Source of the DNA: Escherichia phage fp01
Strand: one strand, 5' to 3'
DNA: 64,000 bases
Sequence record: NC_048731.1
The position numbers were made by a program, and so were the translations under genes. Under the pieces are notes generated by a model. The model saw only the letters and a list, made by a program, of their open reading frames with translations. It was not told where the DNA came from and did not search any database. Of this stretch, positions 2,781 to 13,455 are shown piece after piece. Each line of letters starts with the position of its first letter. Positions within the stretch are counted from its first letter, which is position 1.

Positions 2781-3271
2781 TGAATTGAGAGACATTAGTA
2801 AAAATTGATTTTGCTAATTTTTCTTGTTTACAATCCGCGATACGGAACAGTTAGGCTGCCCCATTAAGGGTTGTTTTAACTGTTACGTGTTAGTTTTTAA
2901 ACAAATAGTTAATAGAATACTTAGCGATCTGCGTCCCATAGGAACCCTGGTAAGGCCTCGAAGCAACCTAGTATGAGGTGGTTGTGAAGTGAGATGGGAG
3001 GAGTGAAAAACTACCGAGACGTGATTCTGTAAGTTATATTGCATCTAGTATGAGCTAGTACATGAAGCATTAGGTGAGCAAATCTGGCTTAGCGGCCATC
3101 CTCAAGGATTTGTGCGGTATAATGAGGCAGCAGCGCAGCGTGAAAGTGGAAGTTGCCACCCCACTTCAGTATTTGCGATTAATTGTTGAGAAATTGACAG
3201 TAACAGTTGTTCTATTCTTTCTGAATAGTCCTAAAGAAAACTTATTTCATTTCCAACACAGGAGTATTGTT

Positions 3272-6061
3272 GTGTTCTCAATCCTACAAGGTCATGCAGG
3301 ATTTCATCGCGATTTAGCCACTGGCATTTGGCGAGAAGTTAAAGCAGAAGACTATCTTTTTGCTAAAAGATTTTCCTCAAAGCATCCTGAAGGTAAACCA
3401 GCTTCAATGCCCTTCAAGTTTGATGTAATTGATGAAATTGATCCTCAAACCCTAGTAGAAATGCTCCCCCTTATGAGACGTTTAACGTCTGACCCTCATA
3501 TCGTTGCGGTACGAGGACGATGTCTTGCACCCAAAAATAATGTGCGACGTAAGAAGGGCAACTTTAATGTATCTAACCCAAGTCATATAATTGCAATGGA
3601 CGTGGATGGTATTGTAGATACAGGTGGTTGTAACAAGTTTGATCTTGTTGGCATGGCTCGACATATTATTAGGATGTTAAATAGTATTAGTGAGGATATG
3701 TTTCCTCTTGATGCAGGGTTTATTGCTCATGCATCGTCTTCGGCTGGGCTAAAACCAGGTATCCGAATGCACTTAATACTAGAATCTAATGTTAAAGTAA
3801 CTCAGGGTCAAATCAAATTCTTATTTACATCTATCAACGAAAGTAGTAGACAAAAGTATGGCTTTGATATTGCCGACTTAGCTTATTACTCTTCCGTACA
3901 GCTCCATTATTTTGCAGATCCGTTGTTTACCGATGGTATAGTAGATCCGTTTAAAGCGGAGGGTGCTTCACGTCTGGTATTTGTTAAGGGTTCTAAAGTA
4001 AATTTACCCAATAATCTGGTTGACTATGAAACAACTAGAGGTGAGTTTAAAGAAGAGTTCTACTCTTTACTCGACCAAATTAAGGGTAAAAAAGCTGCCT
4101 CTGATAAAGTAGAAGAAACTATCAGCGAACTAGAAGAAGCTGAGGATGGAGTGTATCTACGTATTATTCCTAAACTCTATCACAGGGCTTTGGAGGATGG
4201 TGTTGATTTTGCATGGTTAGAAAAAGAAATCCGTCCAGCCTTATCAGAATATATTGCAACTAAAGATAATAGTCGTAATATTCAAGACTACTTTAATAAT
4301 GGTCGTAAACAGGCTCTAAAAGCGTTTGTTAATAATTCTAAACGTGATATACCGGATGTTTTAAAAGGTATTCCACTTAAAAAGCTAGAAACTAACTCTT
4401 TAGAGACTGATAACTTCTTGAAATTAAATACTGTACCACCAGAAGGTTATATGACTTTTGTAAAAGCAAGTTTAGGTACAGGTAAAACTACAGCGGTTGT
4501 GCGTTGGTTAGATTCAGGAGTTATTAAAGGTAATTTCTTAGCAATTACCAATACTCGAGCACTGGTATCTTCAAATGCTAAGAAATTTAGTGCAGGACAA
4601 TATGATAAGTCTGTAGATATGCTTAATTTTAAGCGTGGTGCTATTGACCGTATGTCCACAACTATTCACTCTTTGCATAAGTTCAAGAGTTTTATTGGTC
4701 AAATCGATGCAATCTTTATCGATGAATGTGATGCTGTAATGAATGACCTATTGTTCGCCCCTGTTGTTAAACAACGTCGTGAATGTATTCAGGTTCTTCG
4801 GGATATTCTTGCAACTGCAAAAATCATTATATTATCTGATGGTGATATTAGTGCAGAAACAATTGAAGCATATGGTTCTTTGATTGAGTTTGATAAACCG
4901 GTTGCATTTTATAATCATCACCGTAAAATGCTGTCAAAAGCTCATGCTTACGAGTTCCCTGACGAATCCAGTATTTGGGTTGCACTTCAGACTTCTCTAG
5001 AGATGGGTGAGAAATCTATTCTGGTATCTGACTGTGGGCCGGATGAACTGAATGAGAAGGGCATGGCGTTGCGTCGTAATACGGGTGCATTAGTTAAGGA
5101 AATCCACTCAAACTCTACGTCTGATGTAGATATTAGACGTATTCTGGATTACACAACTAATGAGCTAATTGACCAACAAATTGATTGCTTATTATGTAGT
5201 CCATCCGTAACGAGTGGTGTTGACTTTAACTATTTTGATAACGTATTCGTTATCACTAGAACTAGTAACCAAGCGCCAAACATGCGTTTCCAAGCAATCA
5301 GGCGCGACCGTGGTGCTCAGAACATTTATTATTTTATTGATAAATCTACGAGTGGATTCTCCGCAGGTTCTGAGCAATATAACATTGATGAAGGTTGGCT
5401 GGAGTTAGCACAGCAATTATACGCACGTCGAAGAGAGCTGGAATCTAGGAACTATACTAGTACTTTACGTTATTATTTGCTTGATCAAGGTGCAACTATT
5501 GATATTTTCAGTGAAAGCTGGGGAACTATCGAAGGTGCAGGAAAAGAGTATACGGAAGAGCGAATCAAAGCTATATTGTATTCAACTCCTGATTATTGTG
5601 CTCCACGTCATGCAGATGCGTATGAAGCTAAACTACTTCTTGTTCGCTATTATCATCTTGAATCTATTAAAGATGTAACAGTTGAGCATGTTGAACAATA
5701 TATCAAGGATAAACCGAATGATCGAGCAGCATTCTTCCATAAAATGCACGAGATGTTCTGGGAAGATATTAAGAAGTGTTCAAATGTCACTATCAAACCA
5801 TTCATAGAAGCTCTGAAAGGTAAGAAGAAAGATTTCTTCCTTAAAACAGGTCAGAGTGCTAACCCAAAATATGCCAGAATGTATCTTGGTATGATGGGTA
5901 TTGGTAAGGATATGAACACGGAGAATATTGTAGACTGGTACAGAACTTATTGTAAAATCGAGTGTATGCCAATCCCGTATAAGTTTATGACTGATGAGGA
6001 GAAACATATGCATGATGAAGCAATGGCAGAGCTAGGTGCTAGAAATGACAGTGAAGAATAA
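3272..6061 (+). CDS. large P-loop NTPase, possible replication-initiation or origin-binding helicase-like protein
   Basis: Walker A SLGTGKTT and Walker B IFIDECD; frame open from 3074 but probable start is in-frame GTG at 3272 behind RBS AGGAG; N-terminal extension looks non-coding. Confidence 0.5.
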   Translation: MFSILQGHAGFHRDLATGIWREVKAEDYLFAKRFSSKHPEGKPASMPFKFDVIDEIDPQTLVEMLPLMRRLTSDPHIVAVRGRCLAPKNNVRRKKGNFNVSNPSHIIAMDVDGIVDTGGCNKFDLVGMARHIIRMLNSISEDMFPLDAGFIAHASSSAGLKPGIRMHLILESNVKVTQGQIKFLFTSINESSRQKYGFDIADLAYYSSVQLHYFADPLFTDGIVDPFKAEGASRLVFVKGSKVNLPNNLVDYETTRGEFKEEFYSLLDQIKGKKAASDKVEETISELEEAEDGVYLRIIPKLYHRALEDGVDFAWLEKEIRPALSEYIATKDNSRNIQDYFNNGRKQALKAFVNNSKRDIPDVLKGIPLKKLETNSLETDNFLKLNTVPPEGYMTFVKASLGTGKTTAVVRWLDSGVIKGNFLAITNTRALVSSNAKKFSAGQYDKSVDMLNFKRGAIDRMSTTIHSLHKFKSFIGQIDAIFIDECDAVMNDLLFAPVVKQRRECIQVLRDILATAKIIILSDGDISAETIEAYGSLIEFDKPVAFYNHHRKMLSKAHAYEFPDESSIWVALQTSLEMGEKSILVSDCGPDELNEKGMALRRNTGALVKEIHSNSTSDVDIRRILDYTTNELIDQQIDCLLCSPSVTSGVDFNYFDNVFVITRTSNQAPNMRFQAIRRDRGAQNIYYFIDKSTSGFSAGSEQYNIDEGWLELAQQLYARRRELESRNYTSTLRYYLLDQGATIDIFSESWGTIEGAGKEYTEERIKAILYSTPDYCAPRHADAYEAKLLLVRYYHLESIKDVTVEHVEQYIKDKPNDRAAFFHKMHEMFWEDIKKCSNVTIKPFIEALKGKKKDFFLKTGQSANPKYARMYLGMMGIGKDMNTENIVDWYRTYCKIECMPIPYKFMTDEEKHMHDEAMAELGARNDSEE

Positions 6062-6346: not shown

Positions 6347-7051
6347 ATGGCTGGTTCTCGTAGAAAGAAACATATCCATGAAATCCCTGATGAAGTCTTT
6401 AAAAAGGTTATAGAGCATCTGGGGAACGGTGGTACTAAGAAAGCAGCATGTGAAATGCTCGGCGTATCATCTAATCCAACTATGGAAAGGATGATTGAAG
6501 AATGGCAAGACCGCCAGATTCAAGTTGCCGAAATGAAGAAAAAGAAACGTGGCACACTTATTGAAGGCATCGAGCTAGCTAACGTTATTGAGCAGTATTT
6601 GTCTGGTGATTCTTTTGAAGAGATTGCCGATCGTAATTATCGCTCTGTAGCAATGGTTAAATCTGTTCTGGAACGATATGGTGCTCTACTTCGTTTGAAC
6701 GATATTGTAGATCCATTGAATCCTCCGATTATTCCTGATGATGCTGTAGCAGAAGAATTTGCAGTTGGTGAGCTTGTTTGGGTTCCTGGATACCAGTGTA
6801 TCGGTGAAATCAAAAAAGCAATGGATAATCCTGTTGGTTGCTACCGTGTATGGCTTCTATCAGAAGGCAAACAACAGAACGTCCATTATATGAATTACGA
6901 GCTGGCCTCTGTTAAACATCTGGAAAAGCTAGGGGTTGACGTAAAGTCTCTGGGATATAAATGGACTCGTGAAGAAATTATTACGTTGATTAACGAAGCT
7001 GTTAAGGCTGCCCTGAAACTTGATAAAGAAAAAGGAAAACGCCGTGAGTAA
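6347..7051 (+). CDS. hypothetical early protein with HTH-like segments, possible regulator
   Basis: Starts 16 nt after the PN25-like leader RBS; HTH-like stretches GTKKAACEMLGVSSNPTMERMI and FEEIADRNYRSVAMVKSVLER. Confidence 0.5.
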   Translation: MAGSRRKKHIHEIPDEVFKKVIEHLGNGGTKKAACEMLGVSSNPTMERMIEEWQDRQIQVAEMKKKKRGTLIEGIELANVIEQYLSGDSFEEIADRNYRSVAMVKSVLERYGALLRLNDIVDPLNPPIIPDDAVAEEFAVGELVWVPGYQCIGEIKKAMDNPVGCYRVWLLSEGKQQNVHYMNYELASVKHLEKLGVDVKSLGYKWTREEIITLINEAVKAALKLDKEKGKRRE

Positions 7052-7295
7052 GCTAACTGATTTGCTTAAAGATGGGGAAGTAAAAACTCTGTACCGTAGA
7101 AGCTGGGATAATGATAATAATGGCTTAGTATTACTAACTCTAGATGCTGATTTGGATGTAGTTACCCAACATACCTGGGTAGCTGGTAACTATCCGTATA
7201 GCGAGGTTGTAGCATTAACAGTATGCGAAGCTATTGCGGACGATTGGGAGGTTTCCAGCATCGATGATATGCTCGCTGTTGGCCTAGTGGAGTAA
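7047..7295 (+). CDS. hypothetical protein
   Basis: ORF overlapping previous stop (GTGA); probable GTG start after purine-rich tract; acidic small protein. Confidence 0.4.
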   Translation, partial: SKLTDLLKDGEVKTLYRRSWDNDNNGLVLLTLDADLDVVTQHTWVAGNYPYSEVVALTVCEAIADDWEVSSIDDMLAVGLVE

Positions 7296-7304
7296 CTACT
7301 GAAA

Positions 7305-7823: not shown

Positions 7824-8114
7824 ATGAACAAGCAAGAAATTATCTCCGCATGTGAAGCTCATAACGAGTTCTATCTTCATTACGAGAAATTACGCCAAAA
7901 AGGTACTACGTACCTTCAAGGTACTATGGATTTTTCTGATAAGTACCTTAGTAAACGATTTGCCCAGGAGCGTATTCGTCAACCAAAAGACGACGAGATT
8001 CTAGTATTTAGTCGTACTAATGATAGCTTCCGTTTTATTCCTGTAAATAAGGTGAAACGTATTACTTCATTGTCTAGTGAACTCGATAGAGCTACGCCAG
8101 TAGGCAAAAAATAA
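7824..8114 (+). CDS. hypothetical protein
   Basis: RBS AAGGAGA 7 nt upstream; 96 aa; followed by a terminator. Confidence 0.45.
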   Translation: MNKQEIISACEAHNEFYLHYEKLRQKGTTYLQGTMDFSDKYLSKRFAQERIRQPKDDEILVFSRTNDSFRFIPVNKVKRITSLSSELDRATPVGKK

Positions 8115-8120
8115 TAAAGA

Positions 8121-8150
8121 AAAGGAGAGCTTCGGCTCTCCTTTGTTGTA
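8121..8150 (+). terminator. rho-independent terminator
   Basis: aaaggagagc-ttcg-gctctccttt perfect stem followed by TTGTTGTAT. Confidence 0.6.
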
Positions 8151-8161
8151 TATGGGTTATA

Positions 8162-8827
8162 GTGAAAAAGTTAACAGCAAAGCAAATAAATAAAGAATTA
8201 GAGCCGCGAGGTTTTAGTATAGTAAGTGAGTGGATTAATATAAGGACACCCGCCATATTTAAGTGCTCAAAAGGTCACCAATGGAGGGCATACCTAAACA
8301 ACATAAGAAAAGGTAGTGGTTGTCCACACTGTAGTAATAAAGCTAAGCTTACTATAGAGCAAATAAATCAACAATTAGCCAATAGAGGTATAAAACTTGT
8401 ATCCACGTATATCAATGCCCATAGTCAAGCAGTATTCGAGTGCGAAGAAGGACATAGGTGGACTAGTAGCGTGGATAAGATTAAAAATGCAGGAAGATCT
8501 TGTCCTATCTGTATAGCTACAAGCTATTTGTATATATTTTATAGCCAGCAGCTTGGAACAAAAATAGGAACATCTAAAAGTCCAGAGAGAAGACTTTTAG
8601 AGATCAAAAAAGATTCTAATCTAGAGGACTTGAGTGCATATGGAGTATACTCTTGTGAGGGGTCAGCATATAATCTAGAAAATAAAGCACATAGATTCTT
8701 TAGTGCTACACAGATATTTACAGAATCAATATTTGACGGTTCTACTGAGTTTTTCAATATTCAACCAGAGGAGGCAGAGGAATATCTCCTAAGTCAGGGA
8801 GCAATAAAATGTCAGGAGATAATGTAA
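8162..8827 (+). CDS. putative homing-endonuclease-like protein (duplicated Cys4 zinc ribbons plus GIY-YIG/T5orf172-like segment)
   Basis: Two repeated modules C-x-x-GH-x-W...C-P-x-C; downstream YLYIFYSQ...TKIGTS resembles the GIY-YIG/T5orf172 nuclease core; AT-rich codon usage unlike flanking genes; GTG start. Confidence 0.4.
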   Translation: MKKLTAKQINKELEPRGFSIVSEWINIRTPAIFKCSKGHQWRAYLNNIRKGSGCPHCSNKAKLTIEQINQQLANRGIKLVSTYINAHSQAVFECEEGHRWTSSVDKIKNAGRSCPICIATSYLYIFYSQQLGTKIGTSKSPERRLLEIKKDSNLEDLSAYGVYSCEGSAYNLENKAHRFFSATQIFTESIFDGSTEFFNIQPEEAEEYLLSQGAIKCQEIM

Positions 8828-9120
8828 ATCAGGATTATGTTGGACATGTAGATGATCAGTCCATAGTTATCTGGGAAAGAGAAGATGGCCAACAGGTTAG
8901 GCTAACTGTATCTGAGTTTAGGGGGAATCTATACTTAGGAATTAGGTACTGGCTCCAAGATATAGAAGGTGAATGGTTTCCAACAAAAAGTGGATTCAGT
9001 ATGCCCTACACTCTAGAAACAACATCTCATTTATTTAAGGCATTTACTAAAATATTATCTAATAGTGAGGTTTTATTAGAAGTAGAAAAAGAAGCTAAAC
9101 GCCTGGCGGAAAAAGAATAA
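8809..9120 (+). CDS. hypothetical protein
   Basis: 103-aa ORF overlapping upstream gene end; AT-rich codon usage shared with 8162-8827. Confidence 0.35.
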   Translation: MSGDNVNQDYVGHVDDQSIVIWEREDGQQVRLTVSEFRGNLYLGIRYWLQDIEGEWFPTKSGFSMPYTLETTSHLFKAFTKILSNSEVLLEVEKEAKRLAEKE

Positions 9121-9124
9121 ATGT

Positions 9125-9160
9125 ATTTGCTTTCAACTCAGTTTTGTTATATAATATTTA
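9125..9160 (+). promoter_or_regulatory. T5-type early promoter
   Basis: -35 TTGCTT (9127-9132), 17-nt spacer, -10 TATAAT (9150-9155), then ATAAATTGATGAGAG leader. Confidence 0.6.
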
Positions 9161-9186
9161 TATAAATTGATGAGAGATACAAATAA

Positions 9187-10158
9187 ATGACTAATGTAAA
9201 AGACTTTATTAAACGTTGTCAAGAAGCATATTACCAGGGAATGTCTTTAATCTCTGACGAAGAATATGATCGTCTGATTAAAAGATTTCCGTTAGAAGAA
9301 GAGATCGGGCCTAAGGGTGATATTCCACATCTGTATCGTATGTATTCTTTACAGAAAGTTTATTATAATCGTGGAGATAAACCCCCATTTAACCCGTTAG
9401 GTCAGGTAGAAACTGATAAGTTAGATGGTTGTGCGATTTCTCTGTTATATATTAATGGCGAATTTGTTCAAGCACTAACTCGTGGCAATGGTATTCTAGG
9501 GAATGATGTCACAAGCAACGTAAGATTGCTGAACATCCCCAAAAAGATTTCCCAAAAAGTACCTACTCAAATCACTGGTGAAGTTCTAATTACAAAAGAA
9601 GTAGAAAATAAACGTAACTTTGCCTCTGGTGCTATTAACCTCAAAGATAGCGATGATTTCGTACAACGTATCGGAGAAGGTGGTTTAATCTTCGTTGCAT
9701 ATGGTATCCAGTGTTCTGCTGAATCTGTAGGTATTACAGAAACGTATTTAAAAGATATGCTTTGGCTAGAGAATGAGAACTTCTTAACAGTTGTTAATGT
9801 GCGTTCCTTCTTTAAATGGATTCCGACGGATGGTAAAGTTGTTCGTATTAATGACAACAACAAATTCTTCCGAGAAGGCTGGACTAATAAATTCCCTCGT
9901 GGAGCATTCGCTATTAAAGAGGATGAAGAAGGCGAGATTACAACTCTTACTAAAGTTGAATGGCAGGTAGGGGCTTCTGGTAAAGTAACTCCAGTTGGTT
10001 ATTTCGAACCGGTAATTATTGATGATGCTACAATTGTTAAGGCGACTCTTAATAACGTTGATTATATTAACTCTCTTGATCTAGAGATCGGTTGCCAGAT
10101 TCGAGTGATTCGTGCCGGTGGTGTAATCCCGTGCATAGTAGAGCGAGTATACGATTAA
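9187..10158 (+). CDS. ligA: NAD-dependent DNA ligase, N-terminal subunit (domain Ia, adenylation, OB fold)
   Basis: Domain Ia-like SDEEYDRLIKRF, adenylation lysine motif KLDGCA, TRGNG motif; ends before the Zn-finger region. Confidence 0.8.
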   Translation: MTNVKDFIKRCQEAYYQGMSLISDEEYDRLIKRFPLEEEIGPKGDIPHLYRMYSLQKVYYNRGDKPPFNPLGQVETDKLDGCAISLLYINGEFVQALTRGNGILGNDVTSNVRLLNIPKKISQKVPTQITGEVLITKEVENKRNFASGAINLKDSDDFVQRIGEGGLIFVAYGIQCSAESVGITETYLKDMLWLENENFLTVVNVRSFFKWIPTDGKVVRINDNNKFFREGWTNKFPRGAFAIKEDEEGEITTLTKVEWQVGASGKVTPVGYFEPVIIDDATIVKATLNNVDYINSLDLEIGCQIRVIRAGGVIPCIVERVYD

Positions 10159-10208
10159 TACATAACCCTTTGCTACCCATCCACCATATCGGAATTATAA
10201 AGTGGTTA

Positions 10209-10237
10209 TTGACATTTTCGCCGCTTAGGTATATACT
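10209..10237 (+). promoter_or_regulatory. near-consensus sigma70 promoter inside the ligase spacer
   Basis: TTGACA (10209-10214), 17-nt spacer, TATACT (10232-10237). Confidence 0.5.
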
Positions 10238-10299
10238 ATTATCATTCAGTTGAGGGATAGAAAGTTATGGCGAGGGTAAGCAAAGTTAGTTAAAATTGT

Positions 10300-10335
10300 A
10301 GTTGCTAAATGCTTAAATACTTGCTATAATATTTA
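10300..10335 (+). promoter_or_regulatory. T5-type early promoter
   Basis: -35 TTGCTA (10302-10307), 17-nt spacer, extended -10 TGCTATAAT (10322-10330), then ATAAATTGATAAGGAAG leader. Confidence 0.6.
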
Positions 10336-10357
10336 TATAAATTGATAAGGAAGAAAT

Positions 10358-11140
10358 TTGATGAAAATCGAAATTCCAACACAATGTCCCTCTTGTGGTT
10401 CTAAGCTAGATCTTGTCAACGGACAATTATTCTGTCGGAATAAGTCCAACTGTCCAGCGCAATCAAGTAAGTTAATTGAGAACTTCTGTACAAAAATGAA
10501 GTTAAAGGGCTTTGGCCCAAAAACTATTGAGAAGCTGGAGCTGACGAAGATTTCAGAACTATTTTACCTAACCGAAGAAGATTTGGTTAGAGCCGTGGGT
10601 AGCAAGGTTGCCGCTAAGTTAATTAGCGAATTAAATACTAAAGTTCGCGGAGACATTGACTTTGGTTCAGTTCTCGGTTCTTTAGGAATCCCTCTAATAG
10701 GAGAGGTTGCAGCAAAGAAATTATCCCAAAATTGCACTAGCTTCCACGATGTGAAGGCTGACGGCAAGGCTGGAGAAAATTATAAAGCCTGGCTAAATTC
10801 CCCACAAGGCAGGGATGTTATCGAACTACCGTGGAAATTTTCAACCGGTATTAAGGGCACTAAAGCTAATATCATCATTACAGATGAATTAGTTGCCCAG
10901 CCAAATGGAATCGCGGTATGTATTACCGGATCTTTGCAAGATTTTGCAAATAGAACGGATGCAACAAACTATTTAGAAGGTCTAGGATATACGGTTAAGA
11001 AATCCGTTACCAAAGACGTCAAATACCTGATCTGTGAGGATGAATCAAAACGTTCTTCCTCATCTTATAAGAAAGCCGAAACGAATGGGATAGAAATCCT
11101 GTCGATTAAAGAACTATTGGAGAAAAATAATAATGTCTAA
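10358..11140 (+). CDS. ligB: NAD-dependent DNA ligase, C-terminal subunit (Zn finger, HhH, BRCT)
   Basis: Starts with Cys4 Zn finger CPSCGSKL...CRNKSNCPAQ, then Gly-rich HhH-like segments and BRCT-like C-terminus. Confidence 0.8.
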   Translation: MMKIEIPTQCPSCGSKLDLVNGQLFCRNKSNCPAQSSKLIENFCTKMKLKGFGPKTIEKLELTKISELFYLTEEDLVRAVGSKVAAKLISELNTKVRGDIDFGSVLGSLGIPLIGEVAAKKLSQNCTSFHDVKADGKAGENYKAWLNSPQGRDVIELPWKFSTGIKGTKANIIITDELVAQPNGIAVCITGSLQDFANRTDATNYLEGLGYTVKKSVTKDVKYLICEDESKRSSSSYKKAETNGIEILSIKELLEKNNNV

Positions 11141-11982: not shown

Positions 11983-13455
11983 ATGACCTTGTTTAACGTG
12001 CAAGCTGTAGTGTTGAAGATGCTTCTAGCTTCCGAACAGAAGCAAATAGCATTGGAAACATTCTCAAAACTGCATAAAGATCATTTTAATGACGCTTTCT
12101 CCTCAATTTACCAAGCCGTCCAGAATTATTATAAAAAATATAACACAATGCCGTCCATTGACGCACTTATGCTTGAAGCTAATAGGAACGCCCGCCTTTC
12201 TCAAGCTCTAGTCGTCTTAGCTAACACTCAAATTCCAGAAGTGAGCATGGAACAGGCACTTGAAGTCCTAGAAGCCGAGTATACGCAGGATTTATTCTTG
12301 AAGCTTCTAGAAACAGACGTGCTTCAAGATTTAACAATGCTGGATCAGGGAGAAATTCTCAACCGAGTTGCCTCCCTTCACTTAAAATTAGAAGAGAAAG
12401 TAACGAATACTGGAAAAGTATTCAACGCAGATAACATGCGTATTTTCCAGAGAGAAGAAGATACCAAACTGAACTTAATCGCTCTTGGTATTTGTAATGA
12501 GTTCGACGCTCAAATTGGTTTAGCTCGCACAGAAACGTTACTGCTTGGTGGTTGGCGTGGTACTGGTAAATCCATTATCTGTTCAAACATACAGGTTCAG
12601 CAATATTTGAATGGAGATATTGCTCCATACTTCTCAATTGAGATGAAAGAACATGAAGTATTTAGACGTAATCTAGCCATGTTAGCTGGTGTATCAGCAC
12701 TAGCAATGCGTAATAATACTCTAGAAGGTGCAGCTCTGTTGAGATTAGCCAGAACTAGAGCTAGAATGTTTAATGGTGGTGAAGAGCTTTTCGATAACTT
12801 CGTTAAACAGTATACAATGGCTAAGATGAGTGATTTCTACGATATGGAGAGTAAGCTAATAGAAGGGTATGAACTACATACTCCTATGATTATTGTTTAT
12901 GATCCTGAACTGTCCATTACAACAGTTGACGTAGAATTAAATAAGTTAGTTGCTAGATATGGTGATAAAGTTACAGTAGCTTTACTTGATTATATTAACC
13001 AAACCCGACTTCCAGACTCTAAAACCATTGATATGTATGACTGGAAAGAACAGATGGTTGTTAGCTCGTCTTTCAAATCTATCTGTCAGAAACATAACGT
13101 GGCTGGCGTAGCTCCTTACCAGATCGATCAAGATGGTAGAACACGTATGTCAAAGGGGATTCTTGATTCCGCAGACATGGCTGCTAATCTTAATGCTGCA
13201 AAAGCTGATAATGGTCAAGGTGCTATTATGTTTGACTTCGTTAAGACTCGTTCTTCTGATAGCGTGAAGTTTATGCCTAAAATGAACTGGGAAACCCTGC
13301 GGATGGATAACACTACCAATCTAGCAATGGAAGATATATCTCAAATGGAAGCTGAGTTCGTTATCCCTATTGAGAAGGATAAGCCGGCTCAACCTAAACG
13401 TGCTAAGAAAGACAAAACTGAAAATTCAACAGGTGAACAGGCCAGCGATATATGA
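11983..13455 (+). CDS. DnaB-like replicative helicase (RecA-fold ATPase)
   Basis: Walker A-like GGWRGTGKS and Walker B-like IIVYDPE; start moved to internal ATG at 11983 (RBS AAAGGAG) because the track start lies inside the upstream terminator. Confidence 0.6.
   Translation: MTLFNVQAVVLKMLLASEQKQIALETFSKLHKDHFNDAFSSIYQAVQNYYKKYNTMPSIDALMLEANRNARLSQALVVLANTQIPEVSMEQALEVLEAEYTQDLFLKLLETDVLQDLTMLDQGEILNRVASLHLKLEEKVTNTGKVFNADNMRIFQREEDTKLNLIALGICNEFDAQIGLARTETLLLGGWRGTGKSIICSNIQVQQYLNGDIAPYFSIEMKEHEVFRRNLAMLAGVSALAMRNNTLEGAALLRLARTRARMFNGGEELFDNFVKQYTMAKMSDFYDMESKLIEGYELHTPMIIVYDPELSITTVDVELNKLVARYGDKVTVALLDYINQTRLPDSKTIDMYDWKEQMVVSSSFKSICQKHNVAGVAPYQIDQDGRTRMSKGILDSADMAANLNAAKADNGQGAIMFDFVKTRSSDSVKFMPKMNWETLRMDNTTNLAMEDISQMEAEFVIPIEKDKPAQPKRAKKDKTENSTGEQASDI

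What the first reader, a model, noticed from the sequence alone, without database searches (positions are those of the whole stretch)
8162..9120. AT-rich two-gene insert with a homing-endonuclease-like ORF between early genes
The 221-aa ORF has duplicated C-x-x-GH-x-W...C-P-x-C modules and a GIY-YIG/T5orf172-like nuclease segment. It and the following 103-aa ORF use AT-rich codons distinct from the flanking genes, and the pair is bounded by a terminator on one side and an early promoter on the other. This looks like a selfish insertion that may be absent in relatives.
Basis: partly seen in the sequence, partly recalled or inferred. Interest (0 to 1): 0.35.

Follow-up and report, generated by a model that had tools for sequence, protein, structure and literature searches.

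The report
Homing endonuclease gene beside phage SSB
In this T5-like phage, a mobile nuclease gene of a known type (T5orf172, a GIY-YIG branch) sits directly upstream of the phage's PC4-like single-strand-DNA-binding gene and always travels with its own divergent copy of that gene; this is a neat but ordinary example of a selfish homing-endonuclease cassette.

Summary
The window comes from a T5-like phage (Tequintavirus). Both ORFs exist as described. ORF 8162-8827 (221 aa) has two tandem treble-clef zinc modules (DUF4379/CapR) and a C-terminal T5orf172/MUG113 domain (GIY-YIG clan). At this locus it occurs in only about 2% of roughly 440 related phage records. T5, DT57C and Gostya9 lack it.

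ORF 8809-9120 is not an accessory gene. It is the phage's PC4-like ssDNA-binding protein (T5.115, PDB 4bg7), which all relatives carry. It comes in two sharply separate allele classes. The window's class is at least 95% identical in 12 records and 60-80% identical in 508, with nothing between. In every one of 21 distinct loci examined besides the window, the window-class allele has an intact T5orf172 gene directly upstream.

The exchanged unit is therefore [endonuclease gene + divergent PC4 allele], ending exactly at the PC4 stop codon.

The terminator (8121-8144) and the T5-type promoter (9127-9155) are real. They are backbone features that are also present in endonuclease-less T5. Composition and codon use are not distinct.

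The best reading is a free-standing homing endonuclease with a co-converted allele of its neighbour that is probably resistant to cleavage. Cleavage has not been tested. The class is already described, so interest is low to moderate.

The parts
7824..8114 (+). T5.114 homologue (96 aa, unknown function), the upstream flanking backbone gene. Its last ~70 nt (8045-8114) belong to the cassette-specific divergent tract when compared with Gostya9 and DT57C.
   Evidence: phrog_3696. The gene is syntenic in T5, DT57C and Gostya9. Endonuclease-less phages match only up to about 8044. Identity falls from 91-92% to 67% at 8000-8100 and to 50% against T5 at 8050-8099.
8121..8144 (+). Intrinsic-terminator-like hairpin (AAAGGAGAGC-TTCG-GCTCTCCTTT, then GTTGT) between T5.114 and the endonuclease gene. 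T5 has a hairpin of different sequence at the same position.
   Evidence: Scan hit. Folding gives -16.9 kcal/mol, z -3.5. The T5 hairpin folds to -17.1 kcal/mol. T5 has an annotated terminator at the same place.
8162..8827 (+). Free-standing T5orf172-type putative homing endonuclease gene. It has a GTG start, no clear Shine-Dalgarno sequence, encodes 221 aa, and its stop overlaps the PC4 start by 19 nt.
   Evidence: phrog_681 'endonuclease', E 3.4e-48. The frame is intact in all 21 distinct related loci read. dN/dS is 0.14. Only 12 phage records carry it at this locus.
8165..8332 (+). Zinc module 1 (residues 2-57). It is a DUF4379/CapR-type treble-clef finger with ligands C35, H39, C54 and C57, and is the presumed DNA-binding module.
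   Evidence: Pfam DUF4379, best stretch 30-60. C35, C54 and C57 are invariant and H39 is conserved in 90% or more of rows in alignment A3. The internal repeat has E 6e-18.
8342..8512 (+). Zinc module 2 (residues 61-117), with ligands C94, H98, C114 and C117.
   Evidence: Pfam CapR 69-117 and a second DUF4379 stretch. All four ligands are invariant in A3.
8525..8785 (+). T5orf172/MUG113 domain (residues 122-208) of the GIY-YIG superfamily. Conserved residues are Y124, K134-I135-G136, R144 and E173.
   Evidence: Pfam hits above cut-off. The residues are invariant in A3 and A4. The AF2 domain model (pLDDT 83.7, pTM 0.78) has the order beta-beta-alpha-beta-alpha. The top PDB neighbours are the GIY-YIG proteins Slx1 and UPF0213, but with E 0.3-1.
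8755..9120 (+). Low-diversity block shared by all endonuclease-carrying phages. It comprises the last ~25 codons of the endonuclease gene, the PC4 ribosome-binding site (GGGAG at 8797-8801), and the whole window-class PC4 allele.
   Evidence: pi is 0.003-0.012 here against 0.05-0.13 in the endonuclease body. The block is 96-100% identical even in L011, whose endonuclease is only 47% identical in protein. Invariant runs are listed.
8809..9120 (+). PC4-like ssDNA-binding protein gene (T5.115 orthologue, 103 aa), present as the endonuclease-linked allele class.
   Evidence: Pfam PC4. phrog_4053. PDB 4bg7, E 3.6e-46. The allele dichotomy is 12 records at 95% or more against 508 at 60-80%.
9127..9155 (+). 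T5-type early promoter (TTGCTT, 17 nt, TATAAT) upstream of ligA. It is a backbone feature just outside the cassette.
   Evidence: Sequence read. From 9120 onward the sequence is identical to T5. T5 annotates a promoter there. The strict consensus scan did not report it.

Best explanation
ORF 8162-8827 is a free-standing homing endonuclease gene of the T5orf172 branch of the GIY-YIG superfamily. Two tandem zinc-finger modules would bind a specific DNA site, and the C-terminal T5orf172 domain would cut nearby.

The gene sits directly upstream of the phage's PC4-like ssDNA-binding protein gene (T5.115 orthologue), in the early replication-gene region. It is inherited as one cassette with a divergent allele of that gene.

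Proposed mechanism, which is inferred:
1. In a mixed infection with a T5-like phage that lacks the cassette, the enzyme cuts the T5-type allele in or near the T5.114-T5.115 region.
2. The break is repaired using the cassette-carrying genome as template.
3. The two PC4 alleles differ at about 30% of nucleotides, so crossovers can resolve only in the homologous flanks. These are the PC4 stop codon on the right, and the 3' end of T5.114 or the PC4 start codon on the left.
4. The endonuclease gene and its PC4 allele are therefore copied together. The linked allele is presumably not cut.

Shown here: domain content, conserved catalytic-type residues, sporadic distribution, strict linkage, exact borders, and purifying selection.

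Inferred here: nuclease activity, the target, the resistance of the linked allele, and homing itself.
For: Domains and residues.
- Pfam DUF4379 x2, CapR, MUG113 and T5orf172 all match above cut-off. phrog_681 'endonuclease' matches at E 3.4e-48.
- Six of the eight zinc ligands and Y124, K134-I-G136, R144 and E173 are invariant across homologues down to 32% identity; G38 and H39 are conserved in 90% or more.
- The T5orf172 protein Odn of phage ICP1 is an experimentally shown nuclease that needs the equivalent glutamate (PMC8263062).
- T5orf172 genes with repeated CapR/DUF723/DUF4379-type fingers are described as homing endonuclease genes enriched in T5-like phages and located at boundaries of genetic exchange (PMC10448857).

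Fold.
- The AF2 C-terminal domain has a beta-beta-alpha-beta-alpha order. Its best PDB neighbours are Slx1 (probability 0.89-0.92) and the UPF0213 GIY-YIG proteins.
- 185 viral structure matches have E below 1e-3. The top match is annotated 'Hef-like homing endonuclease'.

Sporadic presence.
- 12 phage records carry the gene, out of about 444 that share the locus. T5, DT57C and Gostya9 lack it.
- Carriers include members of both Tequintavirus and Epseptimavirus.
- HMD-P3, the window's closest relative over 12-36 kb, lacks the window-type left junction.

Linkage.
- The window-class PC4 allele is at least 95% identical in 12 records and 60-80% in 508, with nothing between.
- All 10 contigs shown for the exact PC4 protein carry an intact T5orf172 frame whose stop overlaps the PC4 start.

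Borders.
- The right border is exactly the PC4 stop codon.
- The left border is about 8045 against Gostya9 and DT57C. In L011 and L019 it is exactly the T5.115 start codon.

Selection.
- dN/dS is 0.14, and all 21 distinct related copies are intact.
Against: - There is no cleavage or homing data for this protein or any close homologue. The target site is unknown.
- The PDB fold matches are not significant by E-value (0.27-1.0). The full-length model found no PDB neighbour at all.
- T5orf172 and CapR-type proteins can be domesticated. CapR is a repressor and Odn is an anti-satellite nuclease.
- Every copy is intact and under purifying selection. That would also fit a function useful to the phage.
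- No window-class PC4 allele without the endonuclease gene was found, and no T5-class allele with it. Insertion and allele replacement therefore cannot be ordered in time.
- The PC4 block is about ten times less diverse than the endonuclease body. Simple joint homing of both genes does not predict that.
Confidence: 0.72

Rival explanations
1. The protein is a domesticated T5orf172 protein. It is kept because it helps the phage, not because it homes. For example, it could be a DNA-binding regulator of the PC4/ligase early operon (as CapR or I-TevI repress transcription), or a nuclease weapon against competing phages or satellites (as Odn is).
For: - All 21 distinct related copies are intact, and dN/dS is 0.14.
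- The stop codon overlaps the PC4 start. A weak hairpin (8783-8822, -8.8 kcal/mol, z -1.8) encloses the PC4 ribosome-binding site and start codon, which would allow translational coupling.
- There are precedents for domestication of this family (PMC8096241 and PMC8263062).
Against: - About 98% of relatives do without the gene at this locus.
- Paralogues about 40% identical are scattered at other loci in T5-like genomes, as expected for mobile genes (603 places in 426 records).
- The sharp cassette borders and the distribution that disagrees with overall genome relatedness point to horizontal spread.
- The hairpin is not statistically significant, and the region is invariant, so there is no covariation to test.
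Confidence: 0.13
2. This is an inactive relic in a recombination hot spot. The gene is a passenger in a mosaic region that is exchanged by ordinary homologous recombination between T5-like phages, and no nuclease drives the exchange.
For: - The region is a mosaic in general. T5.114 has at least three allele classes.
- 7100-7300 is another mosaic boundary.
- A variable slot lies between PC4 and ligA.
- L021 carries a recombinant endonuclease gene.
Against: - Catalytic-type residues and zinc ligands are invariant or nearly so, and dN/dS is 0.14, so the gene is not decaying.
- No frameshifted or truncated copy was found among the 21 distinct related copies.
- Two endonuclease lineages only 47% identical occupy the same site next to the same PC4 allele. 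That is hard to obtain by passive recombination.
Confidence: 0.1
3. This is the first reader's version: a foreign, AT-rich two-gene insertion of accessory genes, bounded by a terminator and a promoter.
For: - The two genes are strictly linked.
- The terminator and the promoter do exist.
Against: - The second gene is the orthologue of the core gene T5.115.
- Composition and codon use are not distinct.
- The terminator and promoter are in the same places in endonuclease-less T5.
- The cassette borders lie elsewhere.
Confidence: 0.05

Closest known systems
T5orf172 homing endonuclease genes of ICP1, T5-like and other phages (Barth, Dunham & Seed 2023, PMC10448857)
   Same: - The architecture is the same: repeated CapR/DUF723/DUF4379-type zinc-finger modules followed by a C-terminal T5orf172/MUG113 domain.
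- The gene is free-standing, lies next to a replication gene, and sits at a boundary of genetic exchange.
- The paper states explicitly that the family is enriched in T5-like phages.
   Different: - That paper does not describe this locus (T5.114/T5.115).
- It also does not describe the strict pairing with a divergent PC4-like SSB allele.
- No T5-like member has been tested biochemically, as far as the papers read here show.
Phage T4 Seg endonucleases and 'intronless homing' (SegF with gene 56/69; SegG next to gene 32). Recalled from the literature (Belle et al. 2002; Liu et al. 2003), not checked here.
   Same: - These are free-standing GIY-YIG-superfamily genes between conserved genes.
- They cut the endonuclease-less relative near the insertion site.
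- Flanking markers are co-converted, so the neighbouring allele is excluded. SegG is likewise adjacent to the phage SSB gene.
   Different: - Seg proteins carry the canonical GIY-YIG domain (PF01541) with different DNA-binding modules, not T5orf172 with tandem treble-clef fingers.
- The T4/T2 alleles are far less divergent than the two PC4 classes here.
- Seg activity has been shown experimentally. Activity here has not.
Odn (ICP1 gp88) and PLE CapR
   Same: - Odn has a T5orf172 domain with the conserved Arg and Glu, and is a proven nuclease (PMC8263062).
- CapR has the same kind of zinc-finger DNA-binding module.
   Different: - Odn uses a RepA_N domain for targeting and acts against a satellite.
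- CapR is a repressor that lacks homing function.
- Neither is linked to an allele of a neighbouring gene.
Hef of T-even phage U5 (Sandegren et al. 2005)
   Same: - The best viral structure match is annotated 'Hef-like homing endonuclease'.
- Hef-like genes are listed as a separate class of free-standing endonucleases in T4-related phages (PMC3296691).
   Different: The relationship rests on other authors' annotation. This is a lead, not a test.

Membership tests
T5orf172 / MUG113 domain (Pfam GIY-YIG clan) | Profile match above the curated cut-off | tested here: met
   MUG113 scores 38.6 bits against a cut-off of 22.3. T5orf172 scores 27.8 bits against a cut-off of 20. Both cover residues 122-208.
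T5orf172 / MUG113 domain (Pfam GIY-YIG clan) | Conserved catalytic-type residues: Tyr in strand 1, the K-I-G motif in strand 2, Arg in helix 1 and Glu in helix 2 | tested here: met
   Y124, K134-I135-G136, R144 and E173 are invariant in 11 sequences down to 32% identity. The equivalent Glu is required in Odn (PMC8263062).
T5orf172 / MUG113 domain (Pfam GIY-YIG clan) | GIY-YIG fold (three-stranded sheet with flanking helices) | tested here: inconclusive
   The domain model (pLDDT 83.7) has the order beta-beta-alpha-beta-alpha. The top PDB hits are Slx1 and UPF0213 (probability up to 0.92, 2.9 A over 75 columns), but E is 0.27-1.0. The full-length model gave nothing.
T5orf172 / MUG113 domain (Pfam GIY-YIG clan) | Endonuclease activity | not testable with these tools
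   This needs purified protein and DNA substrates.
DUF4379 / CapR treble-clef zinc-finger DNA-binding module | Profile match and a conserved C...H...C-x2-C ligand set, in tandem copies | tested here: met
   DUF4379 E 4.5e-12 with two stretches. CapR E 1.4e-9. C35, C54, C57, C94, H98, C114 and C117 are invariant, and H39 is conserved in 90% or more of rows. The repeat has E 6e-18.
Free-standing homing endonuclease gene | Presence or absence at a fixed intergenic site among close relatives, not following genome relatedness | tested here: met
   12 of about 444 records carry it. T5, DT57C and Gostya9 lack it. Carriers fall in two genera. The nearest relative, HMD-P3, lacks the window-type left junction.
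Free-standing homing endonuclease gene | Flanking tract co-inherited with the gene (co-conversion, allele linkage) | tested here: met
   The PC4 allele class is linked in 21 of 21 distinct loci examined besides the window, with sharp borders.
Free-standing homing endonuclease gene | Site-specific cleavage of the allele that lacks the gene | not testable with these tools
Free-standing homing endonuclease gene | Biased (super-Mendelian) inheritance in mixed infection | not testable with these tools
   This needs phage crosses.
PC4-like ssDNA-binding protein of T5 (T5.115), for ORF 8809-9120 | Sequence match to the solved T5 protein and to the Pfam PC4 domain, at the syntenic position | tested here: met
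   PDB 4bg7, E 3.6e-46, over residues 4-102. Pfam PC4, E 3.7e-9. Synteny is shown.

The most novel reading that the evidence does not exclude
The window-class PC4 allele may be a portable 'immune' allele on which endonucleases turn over. Two T5orf172 lineages only 47% identical in protein (221 aa and 229 aa) sit in front of the same, almost invariant PC4 block (98-100% nt identity). The break lies about 25 codons before the endonuclease stop.

If both enzymes cut the common T5-type SSB gene and the shared allele resists both, the cassette would act as a gene drive that replaces a core replication gene. The locus would then be a natural system for studying endonuclease-target co-evolution and endonuclease replacement.
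Probability: 0.3. Interest if true: 0.45.

Novelty: new member of a known kind. Interest (0 to 1): 0.27.

Why it matters
The finding adds a well-delimited example to the known picture of homing endonuclease genes as drivers of mosaicism in lytic phages. Here a T5orf172 gene carries with it a whole divergent allele of the phage's ssDNA-binding protein.

The cassette is small (about 1.1 kb). Its borders are exact, and natural 'empty' partners such as T5 and DT57C are laboratory phages. A direct test of T5orf172 homing, which has not been done for T5-like phages, would therefore be easy.

For annotation, the practical points are these:
- ORF 8162-8827 should be called a T5orf172-type putative homing endonuclease.
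- ORF 8809-9120 should be called the PC4-like SSB, not cargo.

Tried and rejected
- Composition. The idea that the pair is compositionally foreign was rejected. GC, GC3 and synonymous-codon likelihood lie at the 13th-55th percentiles of the window's own genes.
- Borders. The idea that the terminator and promoter mark the insertion borders was rejected. Both are annotated in endonuclease-less T5, and the borders lie elsewhere.
- Paralogue in the window. None was found by tblastn.
- Solved structures. PDB sequence search for ORF221 gave only chance hits. Foldseek with the full-length model against PDB gave nothing meaningful. The domain-only model gave GIY-YIG proteins on top, but not significantly.
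- NCBIfam. No family matched either protein.
- More cassette copies in public collections. IMG/VR returned only SP01 and NR01. The JGI metagenome scan returned nothing. The exact-protein look-up was productive instead.
- Apparent truncated endonuclease genes. The 190-aa and 118-aa gene calls are only different start choices. All the frames are full length.
- Hef. The Hef paper (PMC1275590) is not held, so the 'Hef-like' label could not be checked.
- Promoter inside the endonuclease 3' end. A promoter-like site at 8733-8761 matches 9 of 12 positions. The scan found no more sites than shuffled sequence gives (9 found, 10.9 expected), so it was not used.
Full report
**What the window is.** The region matches T5-like phages (Demerecviridae, Tequintavirus) at up to 95.5% identity. 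The best matches are ESCO30 and NR01, and 444 phage records share the locus. The gene order is that of T5: D1 helicase, T5.110, D2, T5.112, D3, T5.114, T5.115, ligA, ligB, D5. Over 12-36 kb the closest genomes are HMD-P3 and IME178, at about 95.6%. No record in the collection is identical to the window.

**Check of the observation.**
- Both ORFs exist: 8162-8827 (GTG start, 221 aa) and 8809-9120 (103 aa). They overlap by 19 nt.
- The duplicated C-x2-G-H-x-W ... C-P-x-C modules are real. Residues 2-57 and 61-117 are 43% identical (E 6e-18).
- Pfam finds DUF4379 ('probable treble-clef zinc finger') twice and the CapR homology domain.
- The C-terminal half matches MUG113 and T5orf172 above their curated cut-offs. 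PHROGs places the protein in phrog_681 'endonuclease' (E 3.4e-48).
- A stable hairpin followed by a T-rich run lies at 8121-8144.
- A T5-type promoter, TTGCTT-17-TATAAT, lies at 9127-9155. The strict consensus scan missed it because its -35 hexamer matches TTGACA at only 3 of 6 positions.
- The composition claim is not confirmed. GC of the finding is 0.361 against 0.390 +/- 0.027, the 12.6th percentile. GC3 and synonymous-codon likelihood of the two ORFs lie between the 20th and 55th percentiles of the window's 60 long ORFs.

**What the two genes are.**

*ORF221.*
- In an alignment with homologues down to 32% identity, six of the eight zinc ligands and Y124, K134-I135-G136, R144 and E173 are invariant; G38 and H39 are conserved in 90% or more. 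These are the positions that define the GIY-YIG-like core of T5orf172.
- The equivalent glutamate is needed for the nuclease activity of the T5orf172 protein Odn of phage ICP1 (PMC8263062).
- An AlphaFold model of the whole protein has mean pLDDT 84.5. The C-terminal domain alone (pLDDT 83.7, pTM 0.78) has the order beta-beta-alpha-beta-alpha.
- The best PDB neighbours of the domain model are the GIY-YIG nuclease Slx1 (probability about 0.9, 2.9 A over 75 columns) and two UPF0213 GIY-YIG proteins. The E-values are 0.27-1.0, so I count the fold test as consistent but inconclusive.
- Against predicted viral structures there are 185 matches with E below 1e-3. The first is annotated 'Hef-like homing endonuclease' in a T5-like phage.

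*ORF103.*
- This is the PC4-like protein of T5, whose structure is solved (4bg7, E 3.6e-46).
- It is described as a PC4 homologue implicated in recombination-dependent replication (Steigemann et al. 2013, cited in PMC7549692).
- It is a core gene of all T5-like phages, not cargo.

**Distribution.**
- At the DNA level the endonuclease gene is found in 12 records. These are six complete genomes (ESCO30, NR01, smaug, SP01, SelmaRatti, HZ_ZJUN2; four of them are also held as RefSeq copies) and two fragments. It is always between T5.114 and T5.115.
- T5, DT57C and Gostya9 have T5.114, a terminator and then T5.115, with about 50 nt between the genes.
- Carriers belong to two genera. HMD-P3, the window's nearest relative elsewhere in the genome, lacks the window-type left junction. 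The distribution therefore does not follow genome relatedness.
- Paralogues 25-42% identical in protein are common: 603 places in 426 records. In T5-like phages they sit at other loci. None is in this window.

**The linkage, which is the main result.**
- Against endonuclease-less phages the window is 92-99% identical on both sides. Identity drops to 62-82% from about 8045 to 9120. That stretch covers the last ~70 nt of T5.114 and the whole PC4 gene.
- A search with 8828-9186 gave 12 records at 95% or more and 508 at 60-80%, with none between. The 12 are the endonuclease carriers, plus one fragment that is cut off just upstream of PC4.
- The exact PC4 protein of the window is listed in 125 blocks of the large assembly collection. 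In all 10 places shown, a T5orf172 gene lies directly upstream with its stop overlapping the PC4 start.
- The shorter gene calls in that table are start-codon choices. All the frames are full length.

**Borders of the cassette.**
- The right border is exact. From the PC4 stop codon onward (AAATGTATTTGC...) the window and T5 are identical.
- The left border is about 8045 relative to Gostya9 and DT57C.
- In two metagenomic phages (L011, L019) the left flank is T5-type right up to the position of the T5.115 start codon. There a different T5orf172 gene begins (229 aa, 47% identical to ORF221), followed by the same window-class PC4 allele at 96-100% identity.
- The unit that differs between genomes is therefore [endonuclease gene + window-class PC4] against [T5-class PC4].
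- The two PC4 classes are about 70% identical in DNA and 74-78% in protein. This by itself explains why crossovers between the endonuclease gene and PC4 are not seen.

**Selection and diversity.**
- All 21 distinct related copies of the endonuclease gene read here are intact. Pairwise dN/dS is 0.11-0.25 and pooled dN/dS is 0.14.
- The HEG of L021 is a recombinant of two alleles.
- Among 13 carriers of the 221-aa type, nucleotide diversity is 0.05-0.13 in the endonuclease body. It falls to 0.003-0.012 from about 8760 to 9160.
- dS is 0.3-1.4 for the endonuclease gene and 0.03-0.08 for PC4. The backbone genes D3 and ligA show 0.04-0.35.
- I cannot explain this contrast with confidence. Possible explanations are turnover of endonucleases on a constant allele, or recombination among carriers with a sweep of the PC4 block (note 3).

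**Mechanism proposed.**
- The anatomy matches a free-standing homing endonuclease with co-conversion of a flanking allele ('intronless homing'). This is established for T4 SegF and SegG; I recall that from the literature and did not check it here.
- The zinc modules would bind DNA, the T5orf172 domain would cut, and repair from the carrier genome would copy the cassette. Its divergent PC4 allele presumably lacks the target.
- Two features fit a target in the T5-class PC4 gene rather than in T5.114. The replaced tract is asymmetric, with about 70 nt on the left and the whole PC4 gene on the right. The L011/L019 cassettes also keep a T5-type left flank. This placement of the target is an inference.
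- The GTG start, the lack of a clear Shine-Dalgarno sequence, and the position just downstream of a terminator suggest low expression, which is usual for such genes. This too is an inference.

**Comparison with what is known.**
- T5orf172 genes with repeated CapR/DUF723/DUF4379-type fingers have been described as homing endonuclease genes. They are reported as enriched in T5-like phages, lying near essential genes, and marking boundaries of genetic exchange (Barth et al. 2023, PMC10448857).
- RefSeq already labels the NR01 and SP01 homologues 'endonuclease'.
- The finding is thus a new, well-delimited member of a known kind.
- What I did not find described in the papers read is the strict pairing with a distinct allele of the PC4-like SSB gene, and the presence of two divergent endonuclease lineages on that same allele.

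Noticed in passing
window 10159-10357 (gap between ligA 9187-10158 and ligB 10358-11140); L024 2495-3193; L021 4615-5256: The NAD-dependent DNA ligase is split into two genes, as in T5. The 199-nt gap holds two strong promoter-like sites (10209-10237 and 10302-10330). In other T5-like phages the same gap holds an endonuclease gene. Klebsiella phage vB_Kpn24-P3 has a T5orf172-family gene there (35% identical to ORF221). Contig L021 has a canonical GIY-YIG gene there (PF01541, E 1.7e-5). The ligase split may therefore be a scar or landing site of homing endonuclease genes.
   Followed up: partly
window 9121-9186; compare L003 2761-2955, L004 3387-3575, L006 3025-3297, L007 3025-3498: The spacer between PC4 and ligA is only 66 nt in the window. 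In relatives it holds one or two small ORFs of unknown function (62-90 aa; no Pfam match for the 90-aa one). This is a second variable slot next to the cassette.
   Followed up: partly
window 7100-7300 (3' half of ORF 7020-7295, the T5.112 homologue): This is another mosaic boundary. The stretch is only 47-71% identical to ESCO30 and NR01, which are otherwise the best matches. It is 88-93% identical to Gostya9, DT57C and T5.
   Followed up: no
window 6036-6061 (end of the D1 helicase gene, start of the T5.110 homologue): The window has no HNH endonuclease gene after the D1 helicase. T5 (hegI, T5.109), ESCO30, and several contigs (L011, L014, L017, L019, L020, L023) have one at or near that position. 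This is a second presence/absence endonuclease site about 2 kb upstream.
   Followed up: no
window 7824-8114; L005 12622-12918: The T5.114 gene has at least three allele classes: window type 96 aa, Gostya9/DT57C type 95 aa, and T5/L011 type 98 aa. They are 68-82% identical in DNA, with dN close to 0 and dS 0.4-1.2 even among endonuclease carriers.
   Followed up: partly
window 8783-8822: A small hairpin (AUAUCUCC ... GGAGAUAA, -8.8 kcal/mol) would enclose the PC4 ribosome-binding site and start codon inside the end of the endonuclease ORF. That could couple PC4 translation to the upstream gene. It is not significant (z -1.8), and the region is invariant, so there is no covariation to test.
   Followed up: partly
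L005 about 13270-13300 (T5, end of T5.115) against window 9100-9125: The T5-class allele ends in a hairpin that overlaps its stop codon (GCCAAGAATGCCTAGTTCTTGGCTTTTT). One T5 record annotates it as a terminator. The window-class allele has no such hairpin, so transcription from the cassette may run on into the ligA promoter region.
   Followed up: no
window 3074-6061: The mechanical ORF call for the D1 helicase (995 aa from a GTG) is about 66 codons longer than the 928-929 aa annotated in T5 and relatives. The true start is probably further downstream.
   Followed up: no
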